Notes under the pieces: generated by a model
Databases searched by the model: none
What the model was told of the DNA's origin: nothing
Seen by the model: only the letters and a program-made list of their open reading frames with translations
From: a virus
Taxonomy: Duplodnaviria; Heunggongvirae; Uroviricota; Caudoviricetes
DNA length: 24,836 bases
Direction: 5' to 3' (one strand)
Virus record (IMG/VR): IMGVR_UViG_2703718834_000011
Span: 1-24,836 of that record
Shown here: piece by piece, positions 1,054-10,954 of the stretch
How positions within the stretch are numbered: position 1 is the stretch's first letter
Layout of the letters: each line of letters starts with the position of its first letter
Program-made: the position numbers and the translations under genes

Positions 1054-1241
1054 AAAAAATGCCCTCCAGTAGAGAGCATTTTTACTGTATGTATAACCAG
1101 TGTCAATGTATGAAATCCTACGACCATACATCTCACTGAAGCCATAATGAAGTTGGCTATTCTTTTTGCTATGTGAGCATGTAACTTTTGCGGTTAACCT
1201 GCGGCTCATTTTTATTTTAGACGCAGGTATAAAAGCAAAAG

Positions 1242-1433
1242 TTATCGTGAGTTTTTAGTACAGATTTTTTTGGATTTACTAATAGTTCCATCATTACAAA
1301 CGAATTTGCCATCTGAGGTACAGTGAGAAACACCTCCCTTTTTCCCTGAGCAGGGATAATTTCTAGCATAGGTAGTTAGTGGGTTTAATAACAAAGAACA
1401 TGACAAAACCACAAAAAATACCTTACCAAGCAT
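1242..1433 (-). CDS. Small cysteine-rich protein with N-terminal signal peptide (63 aa), hypothetical
   Basis: [35 protein letters not shown]... has a hydrophobic N-terminal leader and several Cys in the mature part; strong RBS GGGAGG 6 nt upstream of ATG at 1433; sits between cI and int in an AT-rich stretch. Confidence 0.4.
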
Positions 1434-1448: not shown

Positions 1449-2018
1449 CTATTTAACATACTTGACTGTTAAACTTATAATTTTACCAATTATTTCAATG
1501 TCTTCTATCTTACATTCGAAGGCTCTGTTTCCACCCTCGACGAAGATTCTTCCACCGGGTAAACGAGTAATGTCACGGATCGTTACTTCGCCATCAATAC
1601 TTATTACCCATTTACCATCACGTATATCATCAAATTCTTTATCACAAATAAATTCAGAATTGTTATCTGTGATGACAAAAGGTTTTTTAAACGTAGAGGG
1701 TAGAAATCCCTTATCAAAAATATAAAAACCGTCTTCACGCAAGGCACCATCAGATAATACATATTTAGCAACTTCCATAGTATTTGTATTACCTGAAGTT
1801 TGCTTTGAACCATGTCCGGTTGTGAGCCAATTAAGCGAGGTGCCCGTTTCAAGGGCGCACTGGATTACCCATTCTGCTGGGAATGAGTCACGCATGTAGC
1901 GTGTGGCGAGTGTACTTTTAGAGATTCCTAAATGATCGCACAACGCCTGTCGAGTTTTGAATCCATAAGCTTCTACCATGCGCTCTATAGCGCCTCGTCC
2001 GCCTTTCTCCAAATTCAT
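1449..2018 (-). CDS. cI: Phage 186-type CI immunity repressor (N-terminal HTH, C-terminal oligomerisation domain)
   Basis: About 189 aa; N-terminal ...EAYGF...LCDHLGISKSTLATRY... and C-terminal ...RLPGGRIFVEGG..FEC.I.DI. resemble 186 CI as I recall it; much larger than the 99-aa P2 C. Start set at ATG 2016-2018 (ORF-track 2024 is GTG) with GGAG RBS. Confidence 0.8.
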   Translation of the reverse strand: MNLEKGGRGAIERMVEAYGFKTRQALCDHLGISKSTLATRYMRDSFPAEWVIQCALETGTSLNWLTTGHGSKQTSGNTNTMEVAKYVLSDGALREDGFYIFDKGFLPSTFKKPFVITDNNSEFICDKEFDDIRDGKWVISIDGEVTIRDITRLPGGRIFVEGGNRAFECKIEDIEIIGKIISLTVKYVK

Positions 2019-2043
2019 GGTCACTCCAAGTGAACTTTTATCT

Positions 2044-4198: not shown

Positions 4199-5052
4199 GC
4201 ACCATCCTGAAATGGGCGGGAAATAAAACTGCCATAATGTCCGAACTGAAAAAACATCTTCCTGCTGGCCCGCGACTGGTTGAACCTTTCGCGGGTTCCT
4301 GTGCTGTGATGATGGAGACGGATTATCCCAGCTATCTGGTTGCGGATATTAATCCTGATTTAATCAACCTCTATAAAAAGGTTGCCGCTGATTGTGAATC
4401 GTTTATATCTCGCGCCAGAGTTTTATTTGAGATCGCAAACAGGGAGGTGGCTTATTACAACATAAGGCAGGAGTTTAATTACTCAACTGAAATTACTGAT
4501 TTCATGAGAGCGGTATATTTCCTGTATCTCAATCGTCACGGTTACCGTGGTTTATGTCGCTATAACAAGAGCGGGCATTTCAACATTCCCTACGGTAATT
4601 ATAAAAATCCGTATTTCCCTGAAAAAGAAATTCGCGCATTTGCAGAAAAGGCCCAGCGAGCAACGTTTATCTGCGCCAGCTTTGATGAAACGCTGGCGAT
4701 GTTGAAGGCGGGGGATGTGGTGTATTGCGATCCGCCGTATGACGGTACGTTTTCCGGCTATCACACTGACGGCTTCACTGAAGATGACCAGTATCACCTG
4801 GCATCTGTTCTTGAACATCGGTCATCAGAAGGACATCCGGTCATTGTTTCTAACAGTGACACATCCCTGATCCGTTCGCTGTATCGCAATTTTACTCACC
4901 ACTACATCAAGGCAAAACGCAGCATCGGTGTGGCAGCTGGCGAGGGTAAATCAGCAACAGAAATCATTGCTGTTTCCGGGCCGCGCTGCTGGGTGGGATT
5001 TGATTATTCGCGTGGCGTGGATAGTTCTGCCGTGTACGGAGTACGTGCATGA
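4195..5052 (+). CDS. dam: DNA adenine methyltransferase (Dam-like, GATC N6-adenine MTase)
   Basis: [11 protein letters not shown]..., FAGSCAV (AdoMet-binding motif I) and DPPY catalytic motif (CDPPYDGTF). Start at ATG 4195 with GGAGG RBS; the ORF-track N-terminal extension from 4135 overlaps the TraR-like gene and is rejected. Confidence 0.85.
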
Positions 5053-7463
5053 GTCATGCCGATATGAACAACTGCTGCGGCTTTAACGAAGCTGCCGCAT
5101 CGTTCTCATGGAACAGCCCGAAAAAGGCCATTAACCCTTATCTGGACCCGGTGGAAGTTGCGCCGGTTTCTACGCTTTCAAACCTGATCACTCTGTACAC
5201 TGCCGATAACGAGCAGGAACAGCTGCGCCGTGAGGCGCTGAGTGATCAGGTCTGGGAGCGTTATTTCTTTAATGAATCCCGTGATCCTGTCCAGCGCGAA
5301 ATGGAACAGGATAAGCTCATTAGTCGGGCAAAGCTGGCGCATGAGCAGCAGCGTTTTAATCCGGATATGGTCATTCTGGCGGACGTCAACGCCCAGCCTT
5401 CCCATATCAGCAAGCCGCTGATGCAACGTATTGAATACTTCAGCAGCCTGGGCAGGCCAAAGGCTTATTCCCGCTATTTACGTGAGACGATTAAGCCATG
5501 TCTGGAACGACTGGAGCATGTACGCGACAGTCAGCTATCTGCATCTTTTCGCTTTATGGCAAGCCATGAAGGGCTGGACGGCCTGCTGATCCTGCCTGAA
5601 ATGAGTCAGGATCAGGTGAAACGCCTGTCCACCCTGGTAGCTGCGCATATGAGTATGTGCCTTGATGCCGCTTGTGGCGATTTGTATGCCACCGATGACG
5701 TTAAGCCAGAGGAAATCCGCAATACATGGGAAAGGGTGGCAGCGGAAACCCTGCGTCTGGATGTCATCCCGCCTGCGTTTGAGCAACTCCGTCGGAAAAG
5801 AAACCGCCGTAAACCCGTGCCCTATGAACTCATTCCGGGTTCGCTGGCGCGTATGTTGTGCGCCGACTGGTGGTATCGGAAATTATGGAAGATGCGTTGC
5901 GAATGGCGGGAAGAGCAGTTGCGTGCAGTCTGCCTTGTCAGCAAAAAAGCATCTCCTTATGTCAGCTATGAAGCCGTGATGCATAAACGTGAGCAGCGCC
6001 GTAAGTCGCTGGAGTTTTTCCGTTCTCATGAACTGGTGAACGAAGACGGCGACACGCTGGACATGGAGGATGTGGTAAACGCCAGCAGCAGCAACCCAGC
6101 GCATCGCCGCAATGAGATGATGGCCTGTGTTAAAGGTCTGGAGCTTATCGCGGAAATGCGCGGTGACTGCGCCGTTTTCTACACCATCACCTGTCCGTCA
6201 CGTTTCCATTCCACGCTAAATAACGGCAGGCCCAACCCAACCTGGACAAATGCGACGGTAAGACAAAGCAGTGATTATCTGGTCGGCATGTTTGCTGCAT
6301 TTCGTAAGGCGATGCACAAAGCCGGATTGCGGTGGTATGGCGTGCGGGTGGCTGAGCCGCATCATGACGGTACAGTTCACTGGCACCTGTTGTGTTTTAT
6401 GCGCAAAAAAGACCGCCGCACCATCACTGCATTACTGCGTAAGTTTGCCATCCGTGAAGACCGCGAGGAGCTGGGCAATAACACTGGGCCGCGCTTTAAG
6501 TCTGAGTTGATTAACCCGCGCAAAGGTACGCCAACAAGCTACATCGCGAAATACATCAGTAAGAACATTGACGGGCGTGGTCTGGCTGGCGAGATCAGCA
6601 AGGAAACGGGGAAATCCCTGCGTGATAATGCTGAATACGTTAATGCCTGGGCGTCTCTGCATCGTGTTCAGCAATTCCGCTTCTTTGGCATTCCGGGGCG
6701 TCAGGCTTACCGTGAACTGCGATTGCTGGCTGGTCAGGCGGCAAGGCAACAGGGGGACAAAAAAGCAGGTGCGCCGGTACTGGATAACCCGCGCCTTGAT
6801 GCCATTCTGGCTGCTGCTGATGCTGGTTGTTTTGCCACCTACATCATGAAGCAGGGTGGCGTACTGGTTCCCCGCAAATATCACCTCATCAGAACTGCTT
6901 ATGAAATCAACGAAGAGCCGACCGCCTATGGCGATCACGGCATTCGTATTTATGGCATCTGGTCACCTATTGCAGAGGGCAAGATCTGCACTCATGCCGT
7001 GAAGTGGAAAATGGTTCGTAAGGCCGTTGACGTTCAGGAGGCGGCAGCCGACCAGGGCGCTTGCGCCCCTTGGACTCGTGGCAATAACTGTCCCCTTGCT
7101 GAAAATTTGAACCAACAGGAGAAAGATAAATCAGCAGATGGGGACCCCAGAACGGATATTATCAGCATGGATGACAAGGAGTTGCACGATTTCCTGCACA
7201 GTATGAGCAAAAAAGAGCGCCGGGAACTGGCAGAAAGGCTACGCCTGGTTAAACCGATACGGCGTAAAGACTACAAACAGCGAATTACAGACCATCAGCG
7301 ACTGCAGCTCGTCTATGAGCTGAAGTCCAGAGGATTTGATGGTAGCGAGAAAGAGGTCGATTTACTCCTTCGCGGCGGCAGTATTCCGTCAGGAGCAGGC
7401 CTGCGTATCTTCTATCGGAACCAGCGTTTGCGGGAAGATGATAAGTGGCGGAACCTGTATTAA
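5049..7463 (+). CDS. A: Replication initiation protein A (rolling-circle HUH endonuclease, P2 gpA / 186 A family)
   Basis: 804-aa ORF with HUH-type motif GTVHWHLL and tyrosine-containing motif YIAKYISK; position after the early operon matches P2/186; start ATG overlaps dam stop (ATGA). Confidence 0.9.
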
Positions 7464-7555
7464 TTACGCGGGTTAACAATTCGTGCTCTAAATAATACCC
7501 GGTATATCAGGCTGATGAACGTAAAAAAACGTTTTACATCAGTAAGATTATTGTA

Positions 7556-7575
7556 TACTGTGAATATAAACAGTG
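7556..7575. promoter_or_regulatory. LexA (SOS) box TACTGTGAATATAAACAGTG, with a degenerate second half-site immediately downstream
   Basis: CTGT-N8-ACAG spacing with AT-rich centre; overlaps a possible promoter (TTTACA 7533-7538, TATACT 7554-7559); about 40 bp upstream of the ATG at 7617. Confidence 0.55.
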
Positions 7576-7616
7576 GTTATATATACAGTATTGCGTGTGG
7601 TGTCATAGGAGGAAAA

Positions 7617-7805
7617 ATGCAGGACTATTTTTTGGAGTCTTTGAAGCTCCAGCGCATTGATTTTTTTCTTAAGCTTGTCGCGGCTAGTGAGTGTAGTGAT
7701 GAAGAGAAGGGGCTGGCTCTGCAGTGGGTTTCTGAATTGACTGATGAACTTATGGCAAAAATCAGAACTCACGAATACAACCGCTCAATGGATGTCATCA
7801 GTTGA
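7617..7805 (+). CDS. Small hypothetical protein (62 aa), first gene of a LexA-box-preceded pair; possible Tum-like antirepressor module
   Basis: ATG 7617 preceded by AGGAGG; the ORF-track upstream extension (7515) would run across the LexA box and is rejected. Confidence 0.45.
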   Translation: MQDYFLESLKLQRIDFFLKLVAASECSDEEKGLALQWVSELTDELMAKIRTHEYNRSMDVIS

Positions 7806-7815
7806 GGTGACTTTT

Positions 7816-8049
7816 ATGCGCATTGAAATAATGATCGATAAAGAGCAGAAGATTAGCCAGTCTACCCTGGACGCCCTTGAATCCGAGCTTTACCGCAATC
7901 TGCGCCCCCTGTATCCCAAAACGGTAATTCGTATCCGAAAAGGTAGCTCTAACGGTGTGGAACTGACCGGACTGCAACTGGACGAAGAAAGAAAACAAGT
8001 GATGAAAATTATGCAGAAGGTGTGGGAAGACGACAGCTGGCTGCATTAA
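7816..8049 (+). CDS. DinI-family protein (DNA-damage-inducible protein I-like), 77 aa
   Basis: MRIEIMIDKEQ...LDALESELYRNL...KQVMKIMQKVWEDDSWLH aligns by eye with E. coli DinI (MRIEVTIAK...IDALAGELSRRI...ISEILQETWESADDWF); GAGGTG RBS; start at ATG 7816. Confidence 0.72.
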   Translation: MRIEIMIDKEQKISQSTLDALESELYRNLRPLYPKTVIRIRKGSSNGVELTGLQLDEERKQVMKIMQKVWEDDSWLH

Positions 8050-8138
8050 GAAACGTTGCTGGCATCAGTACTTGATTCTGAAGCCAGCAAGGTTGAACAA
8101 CGAGCAGGGCGAGGCGTTAGTGTTATCATCAAAGAATT

Positions 8139-8696
8139 TCACATAAACATCTGGATTTGCTCGTTTTTTAGTTGGTTGATTTTTTCGCGCAATCTGATCT
8201 TTTCATCAGCTTTTTCCAAAGAGGCTGGTGACATGCAGTTAATCAAAGCGTCAAGGTGCTCTGGAGATTTGATAATAAAGAACTTTTTGTATTTATTAAC
8301 AAAAACGACAGAGCATTTTTTACGTTTAAGAAGCTCAATCACGTTACTCAGAGTACCCGTGCTCTTCGTATCCCAAACCATTAATCCATAATCGGCTTCT
8401 TCTGCCATTTTGAGATCTTTCGCAGTGAAAAACGCGCGAGTGCCGGCTGCATGGCTAGTACTTACTACATGTACAGGCCATGAGCCAAGATTATTGCGCG
8501 GTTTTTCTGAGCTACTGAATACTGTGGCTTTTTTACATCCAAGTTCTAGCAATACGCGTTGAACAGATGAATCAACACCATTGGCATCACCAACTACAAT
8601 ACGAAAACGCGAGTTAACAATTTTTTTCAGACGATCCACGATGAGTGTGTCAAGGTTTTTGATGGTTATTGAACCAGCAACAAATACCGTAGTCAT
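8139..8696 (-). CDS. SLOG / DprA-like Rossmann-fold protein (about 185 aa), downstream partner of the PRTase gene
   Basis: VFVAGSITIKNLD...RIVVGDANGVDSSVQRVLLELG...GLMVWDTKSTGTLSNVIELLKRKKCSVVFV resembles the DprA/LOG fold (compare DprA VVSGLARGID ... SGSLITARLALEQG). Start set at ATG 8694-8696 (GGAG RBS), 2 nt after the PRTase stop; the track start 8708 is TTG. Confidence 0.6.
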   Translation of the reverse strand: MTTVFVAGSITIKNLDTLIVDRLKKIVNSRFRIVVGDANGVDSSVQRVLLELGCKKATVFSSSEKPRNNLGSWPVHVVSTSHAAGTRAFFTAKDLKMAEEADYGLMVWDTKSTGTLSNVIELLKRKKCSVVFVNKYKKFFIIKSPEHLDALINCMSPASLEKADEKIRLREKINQLKNEQIQMFM

Positions 8697-8698
8697 CA

Positions 8699-9280
8699 CT
8701 ATCTCCAAGTCAAAGCTGCAACATAAATGCTTCTAACCTTAGTATAATCGTTTAGCACAGCACAAGCAGCCTCCATAGATGCGCCTGTATGGTAGAGGTC
8801 GTCAATGATAAGGACATTCCAGTTGCCATTATTCTCAATACTGTCATTAACAGAGAACGAATTACCCAGCGCCGTGATTTTCTCTTCTTTTGTATTCAGG
8901 TTCTTTAGCGAAGCCCCGCCGGGGGCTTTCAACAAGAGGTCATCGAAGCATGGTTTGCCAACTAGTTTGGCTAGTTCCTGAGCTATTTCGGTCACTGGCT
9001 GGCGTGCACGCTGATTAGATGCAGCCATTGGAACGATAAACCCGACATTGCTGAAATGAGGAAAGGCATGCTCTGCTAGGCATTGGGCTAAAGGCTTAAC
9101 TTGTGACCAATCGTCACGGTATTTAAGCTGGAAAAGAGATTCGCCTACCTCAGTACGCTCAGTCTCAAACCGCATATGTCCCCACTCATCGTAACCAATG
9201 GGAATGCTGCGGATGCTGTGTTTATCCATCGCAAGACCTAATTCCCAATTTCCAACAATCTGTTTTATGTTGACTTTCAT
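8699..9280 (-). CDS. Type I phosphoribosyltransferase-domain protein (ComF/PRTase-like), 193 aa
   Basis: C-terminal PRPP-binding motif NVLIIDDLYHTGASMEAA (hydrophobic-DD-x-x-TG-x-S/T); ATG at 9280 with RBS; tightly coupled to the SLOG gene. Confidence 0.7.
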   Translation of the reverse strand: MKVNIKQIVGNWELGLAMDKHSIRSIPIGYDEWGHMRFETERTEVGESLFQLKYRDDWSQVKPLAQCLAEHAFPHFSNVGFIVPMAASNQRARQPVTEIAQELAKLVGKPCFDDLLLKAPGGASLKNLNTKEEKITALGNSFSVNDSIENNGNWNVLIIDDLYHTGASMEAACAVLNDYTKVRSIYVAALTWR

Positions 9281-9685: not shown

Positions 9686-10954
9686 ATGGAAATTTTTGAT
9701 ACGAATGATATCTTTGGGCTCTCAAGAGATTTGCCACTTAATTACATTGAAAGACCTGATGTTGATTTCAAACTTAAACAGGAATTACAAGCAAAGAAAC
9801 ATATTGTTATTTACGGCAGTTCAAAGCAGGGTAAGACTTGCGTAAGAAAACACTGTATTAATTCTGATGATTATATTTTGGTGCAGTGTTCGAATCGTTC
9901 TGATGTATCTGAATTGAATGCAAGTATTTTAAAAAGAGCTGGATTCGAAATAACTCAGTCTACCAAGAAAGGTATTACGGGGAAAAATAAAATAATCGCA
10001 TCAATAAAAACTTCTATTTTGGGCTTTGTGGCGAGTGCCGGAGGCGAGATCGAAGATACGAAATCTCATGAACAAGTAACCGCGCCTTTAGAAATTGATG
10101 TTGATGATGTTAATGATGTTATAGCGGCTTTAAAATCTATAAATTTCAAGAAGATTATCGTTCTTGAGGATTTTCATTATATGCCTTTCGAAACTCAAAG
10201 AGATTTTTCGATCGCATTAAAAGCCTTTCATGAAACATCAAGCATTATTTTTGTAATTGTTGGAGTTTGGCTAGAAGATAATCGGCTCATTGTCTACAAT
10301 GGTGACTTAACTGGCAGGATTATTTCTGTTAACGCAGACAAATGGCAAGATTCTGAACTGGAGATGGCAATTGATAAAGGAGGTTTACTCCTTAACATTG
10401 ATTTTGATCCAACTTTCAAAGCAGATGTAGTAACACACTGTCTCAATAGTATTTATTTAGTGCAAGAAGCATGTAGGCGTGCGTGTATTGAATGCGGAAT
10501 ATCAGAGACTCAGCAAACAAAAAGAACTATTGGAGCTGGTTTGGATGGAAAGGATATCATTGCAAAAATTGTTAATGACCAATCGGCTCGTTACAATTCT
10601 TTCCTTATTAATTTTTCAGATGGATTTCAAGATACTGAACTTCAAATGCATAAATGGATTTTATATCCTGTCCTTTCATCAACCATTAGTGAACTTGAAT
10701 TAGGTTTGAAATTTAAAGATATAAGGGCAATATTACAAAGTGTACATCCAAGAGGGGAGAAGTTAAACCTGGGTAATGTTACTCAGTCGTTACAATCAAC
10801 GGCGTCTTTGCAAATAAAGAAAAATATAATGCCTATTATTTTGGATTATGACCAAACAAATAGGAAACTGAATGTTGTTGATAAAGGCTTCCTAATATGG
10901 TTGCAACATCAAGATATCAAAGATCTAAAGGATGATTTGGAGTTGCCAAATTAA
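9686..10954 (+). CDS. P-loop NTPase (Walker A and B), 422 aa, AT-rich; candidate single-gene defence or moron ATPase
   Basis: Walker A IVIYGSSKQGKTC (GxxxxGKT) and Walker B KKIIVLEDFH; ATG at 9686; C-terminal about 250 aa without recognisable motif; visibly lower G+C than flanking phage genes; sits between the cos-like site and Q. Confidence 0.65.
   Translation: MEIFDTNDIFGLSRDLPLNYIERPDVDFKLKQELQAKKHIVIYGSSKQGKTCVRKHCINSDDYILVQCSNRSDVSELNASILKRAGFEITQSTKKGITGKNKIIASIKTSILGFVASAGGEIEDTKSHEQVTAPLEIDVDDVNDVIAALKSINFKKIIVLEDFHYMPFETQRDFSIALKAFHETSSIIFVIVGVWLEDNRLIVYNGDLTGRIISVNADKWQDSELEMAIDKGGLLLNIDFDPTFKADVVTHCLNSIYLVQEACRRACIECGISETQQTKRTIGAGLDGKDIIAKIVNDQSARYNSFLINFSDGFQDTELQMHKWILYPVLSSTISELELGLKFKDIRAILQSVHPRGEKLNLGNVTQSLQSTASLQIKKNIMPIILDYDQTNRKLNVVDKGFLIWLQHQDIKDLKDDLELPN

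What the first reader, a model, noticed from the sequence alone, without database searches (positions are those of the whole stretch)
7533..8049. LexA-box-preceded two-gene cassette (62-aa ORF + DinI-like): possible Tum-like SOS induction module
A well-formed SOS box (TACTGTGAATATAAACAGTG) overlaps a candidate promoter just upstream of a 62-aa ORF and a DinI-family gene. In phage 186, SOS induction works through the LexA-repressed antirepressor Tum, located right of gene A, and I recall its C-terminal part resembling DinI. The two ORFs here total about 139 aa and their reading frames overlap for about 60 nt (7744-7805), so they may be a split, frameshifted or alternatively translated tum-like gene. 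With the 186-type CI this predicts a UV/SOS-inducible prophage.
Basis: partly seen in the sequence, partly recalled or inferred. Interest (0 to 1): 0.5.

Follow-up and report, generated by a model that had tools for sequence, protein, structure and literature searches.

The report
Split Tum antirepressor SOS-induction cassette
This is the already-described two-gene ("tumA-tumB") form of the phage 186 Tum module: a DNA-damage-controlled promoter drives a small antirepressor and a DinI-like protein that together let a P2/186-type prophage wake up after DNA damage, so it is real but ordinary.

Summary
A LexA box (7556-7575) sits on a promoter just upstream of a 62-aa ORF (7617-7805) and a 77-aa DinI-family gene (7816-8049). 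They lie right of the P2/186 replication gene A, in a prophage with a 186-type CI.

The 62-aa protein has no pairwise BLASTP match to 186 Tum. Profile methods do show homology to the Tum N-terminal (antirepressor) half: HMM E=3.8e-10, and hhalign 96.8% probability with E=2.5e-10. The DinI-like protein is 41% identical to the Tum C-terminal half.

The 62-aa protein is 98% identical to its Fels-2 counterpart. Published work already describes Fels-2 and PSP3 as having tum split into an upstream antirepressor gene and a downstream dinI homologue.

The 62-65-nt frame "overlap" is a mechanical ORF-calling artefact. Relatives place the two genes in different relative frames, each with its own Shine-Dalgarno sequence. 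I found no support for a frameshift fusion.

A LexA box lies 14-47 nt upstream of TumA-like genes in 27 of 29 loci.

Small additions:
- The Fels-2 clade carries a second, overlapping LexA box with colicin-operator architecture.
- TumA is nearly invariant while CI diverges.
- int has its own LexA box.

Verdict: already known, low interest.

The parts
7533..7538 (+). Candidate -35 hexamer TTTACA of the tumA-tumB promoter.
   Evidence: Invariant in 10 Fels-2-clade phages, while the 17-nt spacer downstream varies freely in sequence but not in length (A5). The geometry matches the annotated 186 p95 promoter, TTCACA-N18-TACTGT. The generic promoter scan did not call it, so this assignment is an inference.
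7556..7561 (+). Candidate -10 hexamer TACTGT, 17-nt spacer. An alternative is TATACT at 7554-7559 with a 15-nt spacer.
   Evidence: It is the same hexamer annotated as the -10 of 186 p95, and there it also forms the left arm of the LexA box. TATACTGT is invariant in A5. The transcription start was not determined.
7556..7575 (.). LexA box 1, TACTGTGAATATAAACAGTG. It matches the published consensus TACTGTATATATATACAGTA at 16 of 20 positions.
   Evidence: CTGT and CAG are invariant in 10 clade members while the spacer varies. An equivalent box lies 14-47 nt upstream of the TumA-like start in 27 of 29 loci.
7571..7590 (.). LexA box 2, CAGTGGTTATATATACAGTA. It is weaker, and its 20-mer overlaps box 1 by 5 nt.
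   Evidence: PWM score 18.1 bits, third best in the window. The TACAG arm is invariant in 10 phages while its spacer varies. The 20-mer is identical to the second box of a double SOS operator upstream of a pore-forming colicin gene on plasmid NC_010672. It is absent from 186, PSP3 and other TumA clades.
7607..7612 (+). Shine-Dalgarno sequence AGGAGG for the 62-aa ORF.
   Evidence: Read from the sequence. AGGAGG is invariant in A5.
7617..7805 (+). tumA-like gene: 62 aa plus a TGA stop. Predicted antirepressor.
   Evidence: PHROG 698, E=3.6e-38. No Pfam or NCBIfam family. 98% identical to Fels-2 STM2728. Homologous to the N-terminal half of 186 Tum. Predicted helical hairpin, helices 2-22 and 28-61, pLDDT 85.9.
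7804..7809 (+). Shine-Dalgarno sequence GAGGTG for the DinI-like gene. It overlaps the tumA stop codon.
   Evidence: Read from the sequence.
7816..8049 (+). tumB-like gene: 77-aa DinI-family protein.
   Evidence: Pfam DinI, E=6.6e-23. PHROG 189, matching profile positions 71-148 of 151. 41% identical to 186 Tum residues 71-145. Matches E. coli DinI 1GHH at E=2.7e-6. Identical to Fels-2 STM2726.1, which is annotated 'similar to TumB of PsP3'.
8056..8090 (.). Stem-loop between tumB and the convergent minus-strand gene. Possible operon end.
   Evidence: RNA fold of 8040-8140: -29.7 kcal/mol, z = -2.5. There is no T-run on the + strand, so terminator function is not established.
1449..2024 (-). 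186-type CI repressor, the presumed target of TumA.
   Evidence: Pfam Phage_CI_repr (2.8e-33) and Phage_CI_C (5.4e-29). 32% identical to 186 CI.

Best explanation
The region is a LexA-repressed, two-cistron operon (tumA-tumB) of a Fels-2-like P2/186-family prophage.

Proposed mechanism:
1. In a lysogen, LexA occupies one or two boxes that cover the -10 hexamer and the start of the transcript, and keeps the operon off.
2. DNA damage activates RecA, LexA cleaves itself, and the operon is transcribed.
3. The 62-aa helical-hairpin protein TumA is the free-standing equivalent of the N-terminal half of 186 Tum. It binds the 186-type CI repressor, stops it holding the lytic promoter, and so induces the prophage without cleaving the repressor.
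4. The 77-aa DinI-like TumB is the equivalent of the Tum C-terminal half, which 186 also makes on its own from internal starts. It is an accessory modulator of RecA/SOS rather than the inducer.

What is shown here: sequence identity of all parts, homology of both proteins to the two halves of Tum, conservation of the LexA box, and separate translation signals.

What is inferred from 186, PSP3 and Fels-2 work and not tested here: LexA binding, SOS-dependent transcription, and TumA-CI binding.
For: Genomic context:
- The gene order and position match 186 and PSP3: gene A, then a LexA box and promoter, then tum.

Homology to the two halves of Tum:
- The TumA family profile hits the 186 Tum N-terminus at E=3.8e-10 among 739 six-frame ORFs.
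- hhalign against the Tum N-terminal family gives 96.8% probability and E=2.5e-10.
- TumB is 41% identical to the Tum C-terminal half.
- The window's TumA is 98% identical to the Fels-2 protein and the DinI-like protein is identical to Fels-2's.

Literature:
- Fels-2 and PSP3 have tum split in two. In PSP3 the upstream gene carries the antirepressor activity (PMC3121763). The PSP3 annotation reads 'tumA: UV induction of prophage'.
- The 186 mechanism is p95 derepression followed by Tum sequestering CI (PMC7708051).

LexA box and modularity:
- The box is statistically supported and conserved in 27 of 29 loci across at least 8 promoter types.
- TumA-like genes often occur without any dinI gene (ESSI-2, ev040, L005-L018). 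This fits TumA as the essential part.
- Stand-alone 63-78-aa 'Tum protein' forms also exist in the 186-type clade, so fusion and fission of the two halves has happened more than once.
Against: - No experiment on this exact protein family was accessible. The primary Fels-2 paper (Bunny 2002) is not held. The PSP3 activity assignment is a personal communication, and it concerns a TumA that is only weakly related to this one (hhalign E=0.0018, 15% probability).
- TumA is 98-100% identical in phages whose CI is only 38-56% identical to the window's CI. That is unexpected for a specific repressor-antirepressor pair, unless TumA contacts the conserved part of the CI N-terminal domain.
- The promoter hexamers were not called by the generic scan.
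- My LexA PWM rests on sites recalled from memory, and it did not reproduce published heterology-index values well.
Confidence: 0.85

Rival explanations
1. The two ORFs are translated as one fused, Tum-sized protein of about 140 aa, through a programmed +1 frameshift or another recoding event within the 7741-7805 overlap.
For: In the window and in Fels-2 the DinI frame is open for 25 codons upstream of its ATG. That stretch overlaps the tumA ORF by 65 nt. 186 makes a fused protein of 146 aa.
Against: - The relative frame is not conserved. It is +1 in the window, 813R9 and Fels-2. In MLG42, L021, L022 and PSP3 the two genes share a frame, separated by tumA's own stop codon and 3-15 nt.
- In the window and the other non-PSP3 loci an SD-like purine-rich motif precedes the dinI ATG in the junction. 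The DinI homology starts at that ATG.
- The sequence at the stop, AGT TGA G, is not a known +1 slippery site (my reading).
- None of the 66 library representatives of the TumA family has TumA followed by DinI in one chain.
Confidence: 0.03
2. The operon is SOS-controlled, but the 62-aa protein does not act on the resident CI. It might target a host factor or another prophage's repressor. On this reading the cassette is an SOS-induced accessory (moron) module rather than the induction switch.
For: - TumA is nearly invariant while CI varies widely, 38-56% identity.
- In the Gifsy prophages, non-polar dinI deletions had no significant effect on induction of the reporter fusions (PMC3121763).
- No direct biochemical data for the Fels-2-type TumA were accessible.
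Against: - TumA is homologous across its full length to the part of 186 Tum not shared with DinI.
- The prophage has a CI of the 186 type. Its match to the Peptidase_S24 self-cleavage domain is below Pfam's cut-off: 16.9 bits against 23.3, E=0.0053. It therefore needs some other route to SOS induction.
- LT2 lexA-null lethality depends on Fels-2.
- A CI N-terminal segment, RD(S/T)FPA(E/D)W(V/I)IQCALETG, is conserved in the phages that share this TumA type and drifts as TumA drifts.
Confidence: 0.09
3. The LexA-like sequence is a chance AT-rich palindrome and the genes are not SOS-controlled.
For: The bare CTGT-N8-ACAG pattern is expected 0.36 times in the window by chance.
Against: - The stricter pattern and the PWM are both significant.
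- The arms are invariant while the spacers vary in 10 phages.
- The box is present in 27 of 29 loci at a fixed short distance from the start codon, and it is usually the only site of 13 bits or more in 6-8 kb.
Confidence: 0.02

Closest known systems
Fels-2 STM2728 / STM2726.1 (the split tum region of Salmonella prophage Fels-2) and its clade (SopEPhi, RE2010, SEN8, Klebsiella 4LV2017, E. coli Cartapus, 813R9)
   Same: This is essentially the same element. TumA is 98% identical and the DinI-like protein is identical. The 10-nt junction, the double LexA box and the position after gene A are all the same.
   Different: The flanks differ. The window's CI is only 38% identical to Fels-2 CI. The cargo downstream of tumB is also different.
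PSP3 tumA / tumB
   Same: Same architecture: a LexA box, then a roughly 60-aa upstream gene annotated for UV induction, then a 77-aa DinI-like gene, all right of gene A.
   Different: PSP3 TumA is only weakly related (hhalign E=0.0018 against this family and 1e-5 against the 186 family). The two PSP3 genes are in the same frame, 3 nt apart. PSP3 has a single LexA box, and its CI is a longer, different protein.
Phage 186 Tum (p95 SOS operon)
   Same: LexA-repressed promoter with the same -10/box overlap, an N-terminal antirepressor part homologous to TumA, a DinI-like C-terminal part, a 186-type CI target, and a position right of gene A.
   Different: In 186 the two parts are fused in one 146-aa protein, and the DinI-like part is also made from internal starts. 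186 has a single box close to consensus, and orf97 follows in the operon.
Gifsy-1/-2/-3 dinI-gfoA/gftA SOS loci
   Same: A LexA-controlled prophage operon that pairs a dinI homologue with a small antirepressor (PMC3121763).
   Different: The gene order is reversed, with dinI first. The Gifsy antirepressors were not detected as relatives of TumA in any search here, and they act on a different repressor family.
Colicin operators with two overlapping SOS boxes
   Same: Two 20-mers offset by 15 bp. The second box of the window is identical to that of a colicin-A-like plasmid operator, and 30 of the 35 operator positions match. The literature says such operators bind two LexA dimers and prevent untimely expression of a lethal product (PMC2994835).
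   Different: In the window box 1 overlaps the -10 hexamer, whereas in the colicin plasmid both boxes lie downstream of it. Binding of two LexA dimers was not tested here.

Membership tests
Tum-type LexA-controlled antirepressor module (186 Tum; PSP3/Fels-2 TumA-TumB) | A LexA operator overlaps the promoter immediately upstream. | tested here: met
   Box at 7556-7575. PWM score 21.2 bits. The strict pattern gives 3 matches against 0.18 expected. Conserved in 27 of 29 loci.
Tum-type LexA-controlled antirepressor module (186 Tum; PSP3/Fels-2 TumA-TumB) | A protein part homologous to the non-DinI N-terminal half of 186 Tum. | tested here: met
   hmmsearch E=3.8e-10. hhalign 96.8% probability, E=2.5e-10, 50 columns. 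Pairwise BLASTP is negative.
Tum-type LexA-controlled antirepressor module (186 Tum; PSP3/Fels-2 TumA-TumB) | A DinI-like part, either fused or encoded immediately downstream. | tested here: met
   Pfam DinI 6.6e-23. 41% identical to Tum 71-145. The gene starts 10 nt after the tumA stop.
Tum-type LexA-controlled antirepressor module (186 Tum; PSP3/Fels-2 TumA-TumB) | Located right of replication gene A in a P2/186-family genome that has a 186-type CI. | tested here: met
   The gpA-like ORF at 5049-7463 ends 93 nt before the box. CI domains and 32% identity to 186 CI. Same layout in 186, PSP3 and Fels-2.
Tum-type LexA-controlled antirepressor module (186 Tum; PSP3/Fels-2 TumA-TumB) | Transcription is induced by the SOS response and blocked in lexA(Ind-) hosts. 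| not testable with these tools
   Known for 186 p95 (PMC7708051). Implied for Fels-2 by lexA-null lethality.
Tum-type LexA-controlled antirepressor module (186 Tum; PSP3/Fels-2 TumA-TumB) | The protein binds CI and prevents operator binding (antirepressor activity). | not testable with these tools
   Shown for 186 Tum (Shearwin 1998, as cited). For PSP3 TumA it is only a personal communication. There is no complex-prediction tool here.
DinI family (PF06183) | Matches the family profile over its full length, including the acidic, Trp-containing C-terminal helix. | tested here: met
   81 bits against a cut-off of 24, profile positions 1-63 of 63. Aligns to 1GHH residues 1-77. It scores below the cut-off of the chromosomal DinI equivalog NF007893, 42.7 against 111. 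It is therefore a DinI-like paralogue, not dinI itself.
DinI family (PF06183) | Binds RecA filaments. | not testable with these tools
   Inference from family membership only.
Colicin-type double overlapping SOS operator | Two LexA-box 20-mers offset by about 15 bp. | tested here: met
   Boxes at 7556 and 7571. The second is identical to the one in the colicin plasmid operator. Its arm is invariant in 10 phages.
Colicin-type double overlapping SOS operator | Two LexA dimers bind simultaneously. | not testable with these tools
   Stated for colicin operators in PMC2994835. Not tested for this promoter.
Programmed-frameshift fusion gene | A conserved frame relationship and overlap between the two ORFs, with a slippery site. 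| tested here: not met
   The frame relationship differs among relatives, and the overlap is absent in MLG42, L021, L022 and PSP3.

The most novel reading that the evidence does not exclude
In the Fels-2 clade, one nearly invariant TumA may act as a broad-specificity antirepressor. It would recognise a conserved surface of the CI N-terminal domain, the segment RD(S/T)FPA(E/D)W(V/I)IQCALETG, rather than the variable C-terminal domain. A single SOS signal, or a single prophage, could then cross-induce P2-like prophages whose CIs share only 38-56% identity.

This would be combined with two other features. A colicin-style double LexA operator would keep tumA tightly off until damage is severe. A separate LexA-controlled int promoter would add a second SOS-controlled step. 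Together they would form a small prophage-borne SOS regulon, tighter and broader than the single-box p95/Tum switch of 186.
Probability: 0.3. Interest if true: 0.45.

Novelty: already known. Interest (0 to 1): 0.2.

Why it matters
The finding predicts that this prophage, and its relatives, are induced by DNA damage through an antirepressor rather than by repressor cleavage. The cassette is present in 1125 of 5426 complete E. coli genomes. Such induction matters for prophage-mediated killing and gene transfer under SOS-inducing antibiotics.

The practical gain is in annotation. The 62-aa gene is labelled 'hypothetical protein' almost everywhere, and occasionally 'levan regulatory protein'. It has no Pfam or NCBIfam family. 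It can now be named a TumA-type antirepressor.

The biology itself was described for Fels-2 and PSP3 two decades ago.

Tried and rejected
- **Pairwise BLASTP.** Comparing the 62-aa ORF with 186 Tum and with PSP3 TumA, and PSP3 TumA with 186 Tum, gave nothing. This is a sensitivity limit, not evidence of no relationship, because profiles detect the homology.
- **Family and structure libraries for TumA.** Pfam, NCBIfam and PDB sequence searches found no family or structure.
- **Structure comparison.** A Foldseek search of the predicted helical hairpin against viral structures found nothing below E=0.5. Generic hairpin hits are uninformative, so I did not pursue this.
- **Related-loci scan.** The first attempt, with the broad 27-sequence alignment, failed because no stretch was conserved enough. 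I repeated it with a tighter 8-sequence alignment.
- **Primary Fels-2 paper.** Bunny et al. 2002 could not be read.
- **Literature search for tumA, tumB and STM2728.** It returned only irrelevant papers.
- **Heterology index.** Recomputing it from remembered LexA sites did not reproduce the published values for lexA and umuDC. I therefore report only relative PWM ranks, not HI values.
- **Rfam scan of 7300-8300.** No credible RNA family.
- **Generic promoter scan.** It did not call the promoter. The hexamers are assigned by analogy with 186 p95 and by conservation.
- **Frameshift-fusion idea.** Considered and rejected.

Full report
**What is in the sequence**

The window is a P2/186-family (Peduoviridae) prophage segment. 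The genes around the finding are:
- integrase, a mechanical ORF at 1-1209 on the minus strand;
- a 186-type CI at 1449-2024 on the minus strand (Pfam Phage_CI_repr 2.8e-33 and Phage_CI_C 5.4e-29, 32% identical to 186 CI);
- a CII/CP76 homologue and a Dam methylase;
- a gpA-like replication gene at 5049-7463.

Ninety-three bases after gene A lies TACTGTGAATATAAACAGTG at 7556-7575. Next come an AGGAGG Shine-Dalgarno sequence (7607-7612) and a 62-codon ORF (7617-7805). These are followed by a GAGGTG Shine-Dalgarno sequence (7804-7809) and a 77-codon DinI-family ORF (7816-8049). The DinI ORF hits Pfam PF06183 at E=6.6e-23. A stem-loop at 8056-8090 follows, and the next genes point the other way. 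The unit is therefore a promoter plus two cistrons.

**Is the LexA box more than chance?**

- The bare CTGT-N8-ACAG pattern occurs once against 0.36 expected, which is not significant alone.
- The stricter TACTGT-N8-ACAGT with up to 1 mismatch gives 3 matches at 2 sites against 0.18 expected. None of 100 shuffles reached 3.
- A position weight matrix that I built from E. coli LexA sites recalled from memory scores the box at 21.2 bits. That is the median of the training sites. Only 1 of 200 first-order Markov randomisations of the window reached it. This matrix is my own reconstruction. It did not reproduce published heterology indices well, so I use it only for ranking.
- The decisive evidence is comparative. 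I examined 29 loci that carry a TumA-like gene: the window, 186, PSP3, Fels-2, other phages, and 20 Enterobacterales genome loci found with a family alignment. In 27 of them a site of at least 13 bits lies 14-47 nt upstream of the start codon. It is usually the only such site in 6-8 kb.
- Among ten Fels-2-clade phages the arms (TATACTGT, CAGTGG) and a TTTACA hexamer 17 nt upstream are invariant, while the spacers between them vary.
- The layout TTTACA-N17-TACTGT mirrors the annotated 186 p95 promoter, TTCACA-N18-TACTGT. In p95 the -10 hexamer is also the left arm of the LexA box.

**What the two proteins are**

The DinI-like protein is 41% identical to residues 71-145 of 186 Tum. It aligns end to end with E. 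coli DinI, PDB 1GHH.

The 62-aa protein has no Pfam or NCBIfam family and no BLASTP match to Tum. It does belong to a well-populated family. PHROG 698 matches at 3.6e-38, there are 484 clusters in the large protein collection, and 66 representatives at the 50% identity level are nearly all 55-75 aa. A profile of 30 diverse members plus the window protein hits 186 Tum residues about 6-48 at E=3.8e-10 in a database of 739 six-frame ORFs. The reciprocal profile-profile comparison with 14 Tum N-terminal homologues gives 96.8% probability and E=2.5e-10 over 50 columns. In my hand alignment, the window protein, 186 Tum and PSP3 TumA share a Cys followed six residues later by (I/L)-A-L-x-(L/W)-(I/V)-(A/S)-(E/D)-(I/L); hhalign aligns this stretch in the same register. 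AlphaFold2 predicts a helical hairpin, with helices 2-22 and 28-61 and mean pLDDT 85.9.

The two ORFs therefore correspond to the two halves of Tum.

**Already described**

The window's TumA is 98% identical to Fels-2 STM2728, and its DinI-like protein is identical to STM2726.1. The latter is annotated 'similar to TumB of PsP3'. PSP3 is annotated with tumA ('similar to 5' end 186 tum; UV induction of prophage') and tumB.

Lemire et al. [quoted passage not shown] The 186 mechanism is SOS derepression of p95 followed by Tum sequestering CI, as summarised in PMC7708051. I could not read Bunny 2002 itself.

**Split, not frameshifted**

In relatives the relationship changes:
- +1 frame with a 10-nt gap in the window, 813R9 and Fels-2;
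- same frame, separated by tumA's stop codon and 12-15 nt, in MLG42 (TumA 84% identical), L021 and L022;
- same frame with a 3-nt gap in PSP3.

In the window and the other non-PSP3 loci an SD-like purine-rich motif precedes the dinI ATG in the junction. No library representative has TumA and DinI in one chain. Many TumA-like genes have no dinI next to them at all, including ESSI-2, ev040 and most genome loci. Stand-alone 63-78-aa 'Tum protein' forms also exist within the 186-type clade. The two halves are independent modules that have been joined and separated more than once. TumA is the constant part.

**Most likely mechanism**

LexA holds the promoter off. DNA damage removes LexA. TumA is made and inactivates CI by binding it. 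TumB modulates RecA/SOS. Only the sequence-level steps are shown here. LexA binding, SOS-dependent transcription and TumA-CI binding are inferred from 186, PSP3 and Fels-2.

**Small additions beyond the literature I could access**

1. *A second LexA box.* The Fels-2 clade has a second, weaker box (7571-7590, 18.1 bits) that overlaps the first. Its TACAG arm is invariant in ten phages. This 20-mer is identical to the second box of a double SOS operator upstream of a pore-forming colicin gene on plasmid NC_010672, and 30 of the 35 operator positions match. [quoted passage not shown] 186, PSP3 and the other TumA clades have a single box.
2. *Invariant TumA, divergent CI.* TumA is 98-100% identical in phages whose CI is only 38-56% identical to the window's. 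The CI divergence is concentrated in the C-terminal domain (24-42% identity). The N-terminal domain is 59-70% identical and keeps the stretch RD(S/T)FPA(E/D)W(V/I)IQCALETG. That stretch drifts in parallel with TumA in ESSI-2, a Yersinia phage, 186 and PSP3. This suggests, but does not show, that TumA contacts that surface and may act across CI types this divergent; whether they differ in immunity was not tested. The sample is small and phylogenetically non-independent.

**Verdict**

The frameshift variant is rejected. The element is a further copy of a known module that is common in Enterobacterales, present in 21% of complete E. coli genomes. The main practical outcome is a name for a gene that is annotated as hypothetical nearly everywhere.

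Noticed in passing
window 1083-1102 (box), 1101-1106 (-35), int start at 1053, minus strand: The best LexA-box match in the window (CACTGGTTATACATACAGTA on the minus strand, 23.2 bits) lies between a perfect TTGACA and the real start of the integrase gene (ATG at 1053, Shine-Dalgarno GGAGGG). The mechanical 402-aa ORF overcalls the N-terminus. The box and the -35 hexamer are conserved in 813R9, Klebsiella phage 4LV2017 and the only 69%-identical ESSI2_ev129. int therefore appears to have its own SOS-controlled promoter, unlike 186 where int follows cI. I did not search the literature for this.
   Followed up: partly
window 7571-7590; L038 (NC_010672) 2000-2034: The tumA promoter of the Fels-2 clade carries a colicin-type double overlapping SOS operator. 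The 38-nt operator query matched 983 plasmid records, 663 of them mobilizable. One match was examined: on a 7.4-kb Shigella boydii plasmid it lies upstream of a pore-forming colicin gene.
   Followed up: partly
window 1449-2024 (CI) versus 7617-7805 (TumA): TumA is 98-100% identical across phages whose CI repressors are only 38-56% identical to the window's. The CI N-terminal domain keeps a conserved segment (residues about 46-62), while the C-terminal domain diverges to 24-42%. This may point to a broad-specificity antirepressor and cross-induction.
   Followed up: partly
window 8139-8708 (-), 8699-9280 (-), 9686-10954 (+): The variable region between tumB and the portal gene, which is the P2 tin/old position, holds likely anti-phage cargo. 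There is a ShosT/PsyrT-like phosphoribosyltransferase (PADLOC 1.3e-8; ComF-like in NCBIfam) with an overlapping partner that only weakly resembles PsyrA (E=0.007). There is also a 422-aa AAA protein matching the PADLOC candidate PDC-S59 at 4.8e-72. Fels-2, 186 and 813R9 carry different genes at this position.
   Followed up: partly
window 1243-1433, minus strand: A small ORF of about 62 aa lies between cI and int. Its N-terminus ([23 protein letters not shown]) looks like a signal peptide and the mature part is Cys-rich. It is a possible lysogenic-conversion (moron) gene. I read it by eye and did not analyse it.
   Followed up: no
proteins P0147, P0149, P0152, P0155, P0164, P0169, P0172, P0177, P0181; L025 3001-3222; L026 3001-3210: More distant TumA-like proteins carry a conserved C-terminal tail absent from the window protein. 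It has the form K-N-P-Q-x-G-G ... G-G-x-(L/F)-Q and ends exactly at the C-terminus. Its function is unknown. It could be a degradation or interaction tag.
   Followed up: no
database entries for the 62-aa protein (P0018, H36): The TumA-like protein is annotated 'hypothetical protein' in RefSeq E. coli genomes and in most phage records. It is occasionally mislabelled 'levan regulatory protein'. Gene callers often extend it to 84-101 aa across its own promoter and LexA box.
   Followed up: yes
L009 (Klebsiella michiganensis), L017 and L019 (Huaxiibacter, Enterobacter): Three TumA-like loci have a disrupted operator. In L009 a GC-rich stretch lies directly upstream of tumA, and the nearest LexA box of 13 bits or more is 1.9 kb upstream. 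L017 and L019 have point changes in the CTGT arm. These may be prophages that have lost or altered SOS control.
   Followed up: no
L020 (JAVBKE010000012.1, 2.7-kb contig): A contig binned as a 'Bacillales bacterium' MAG carries a typical enterobacterial TumA-like gene with a LexA box. This is probably a binning or contamination error.
   Followed up: no
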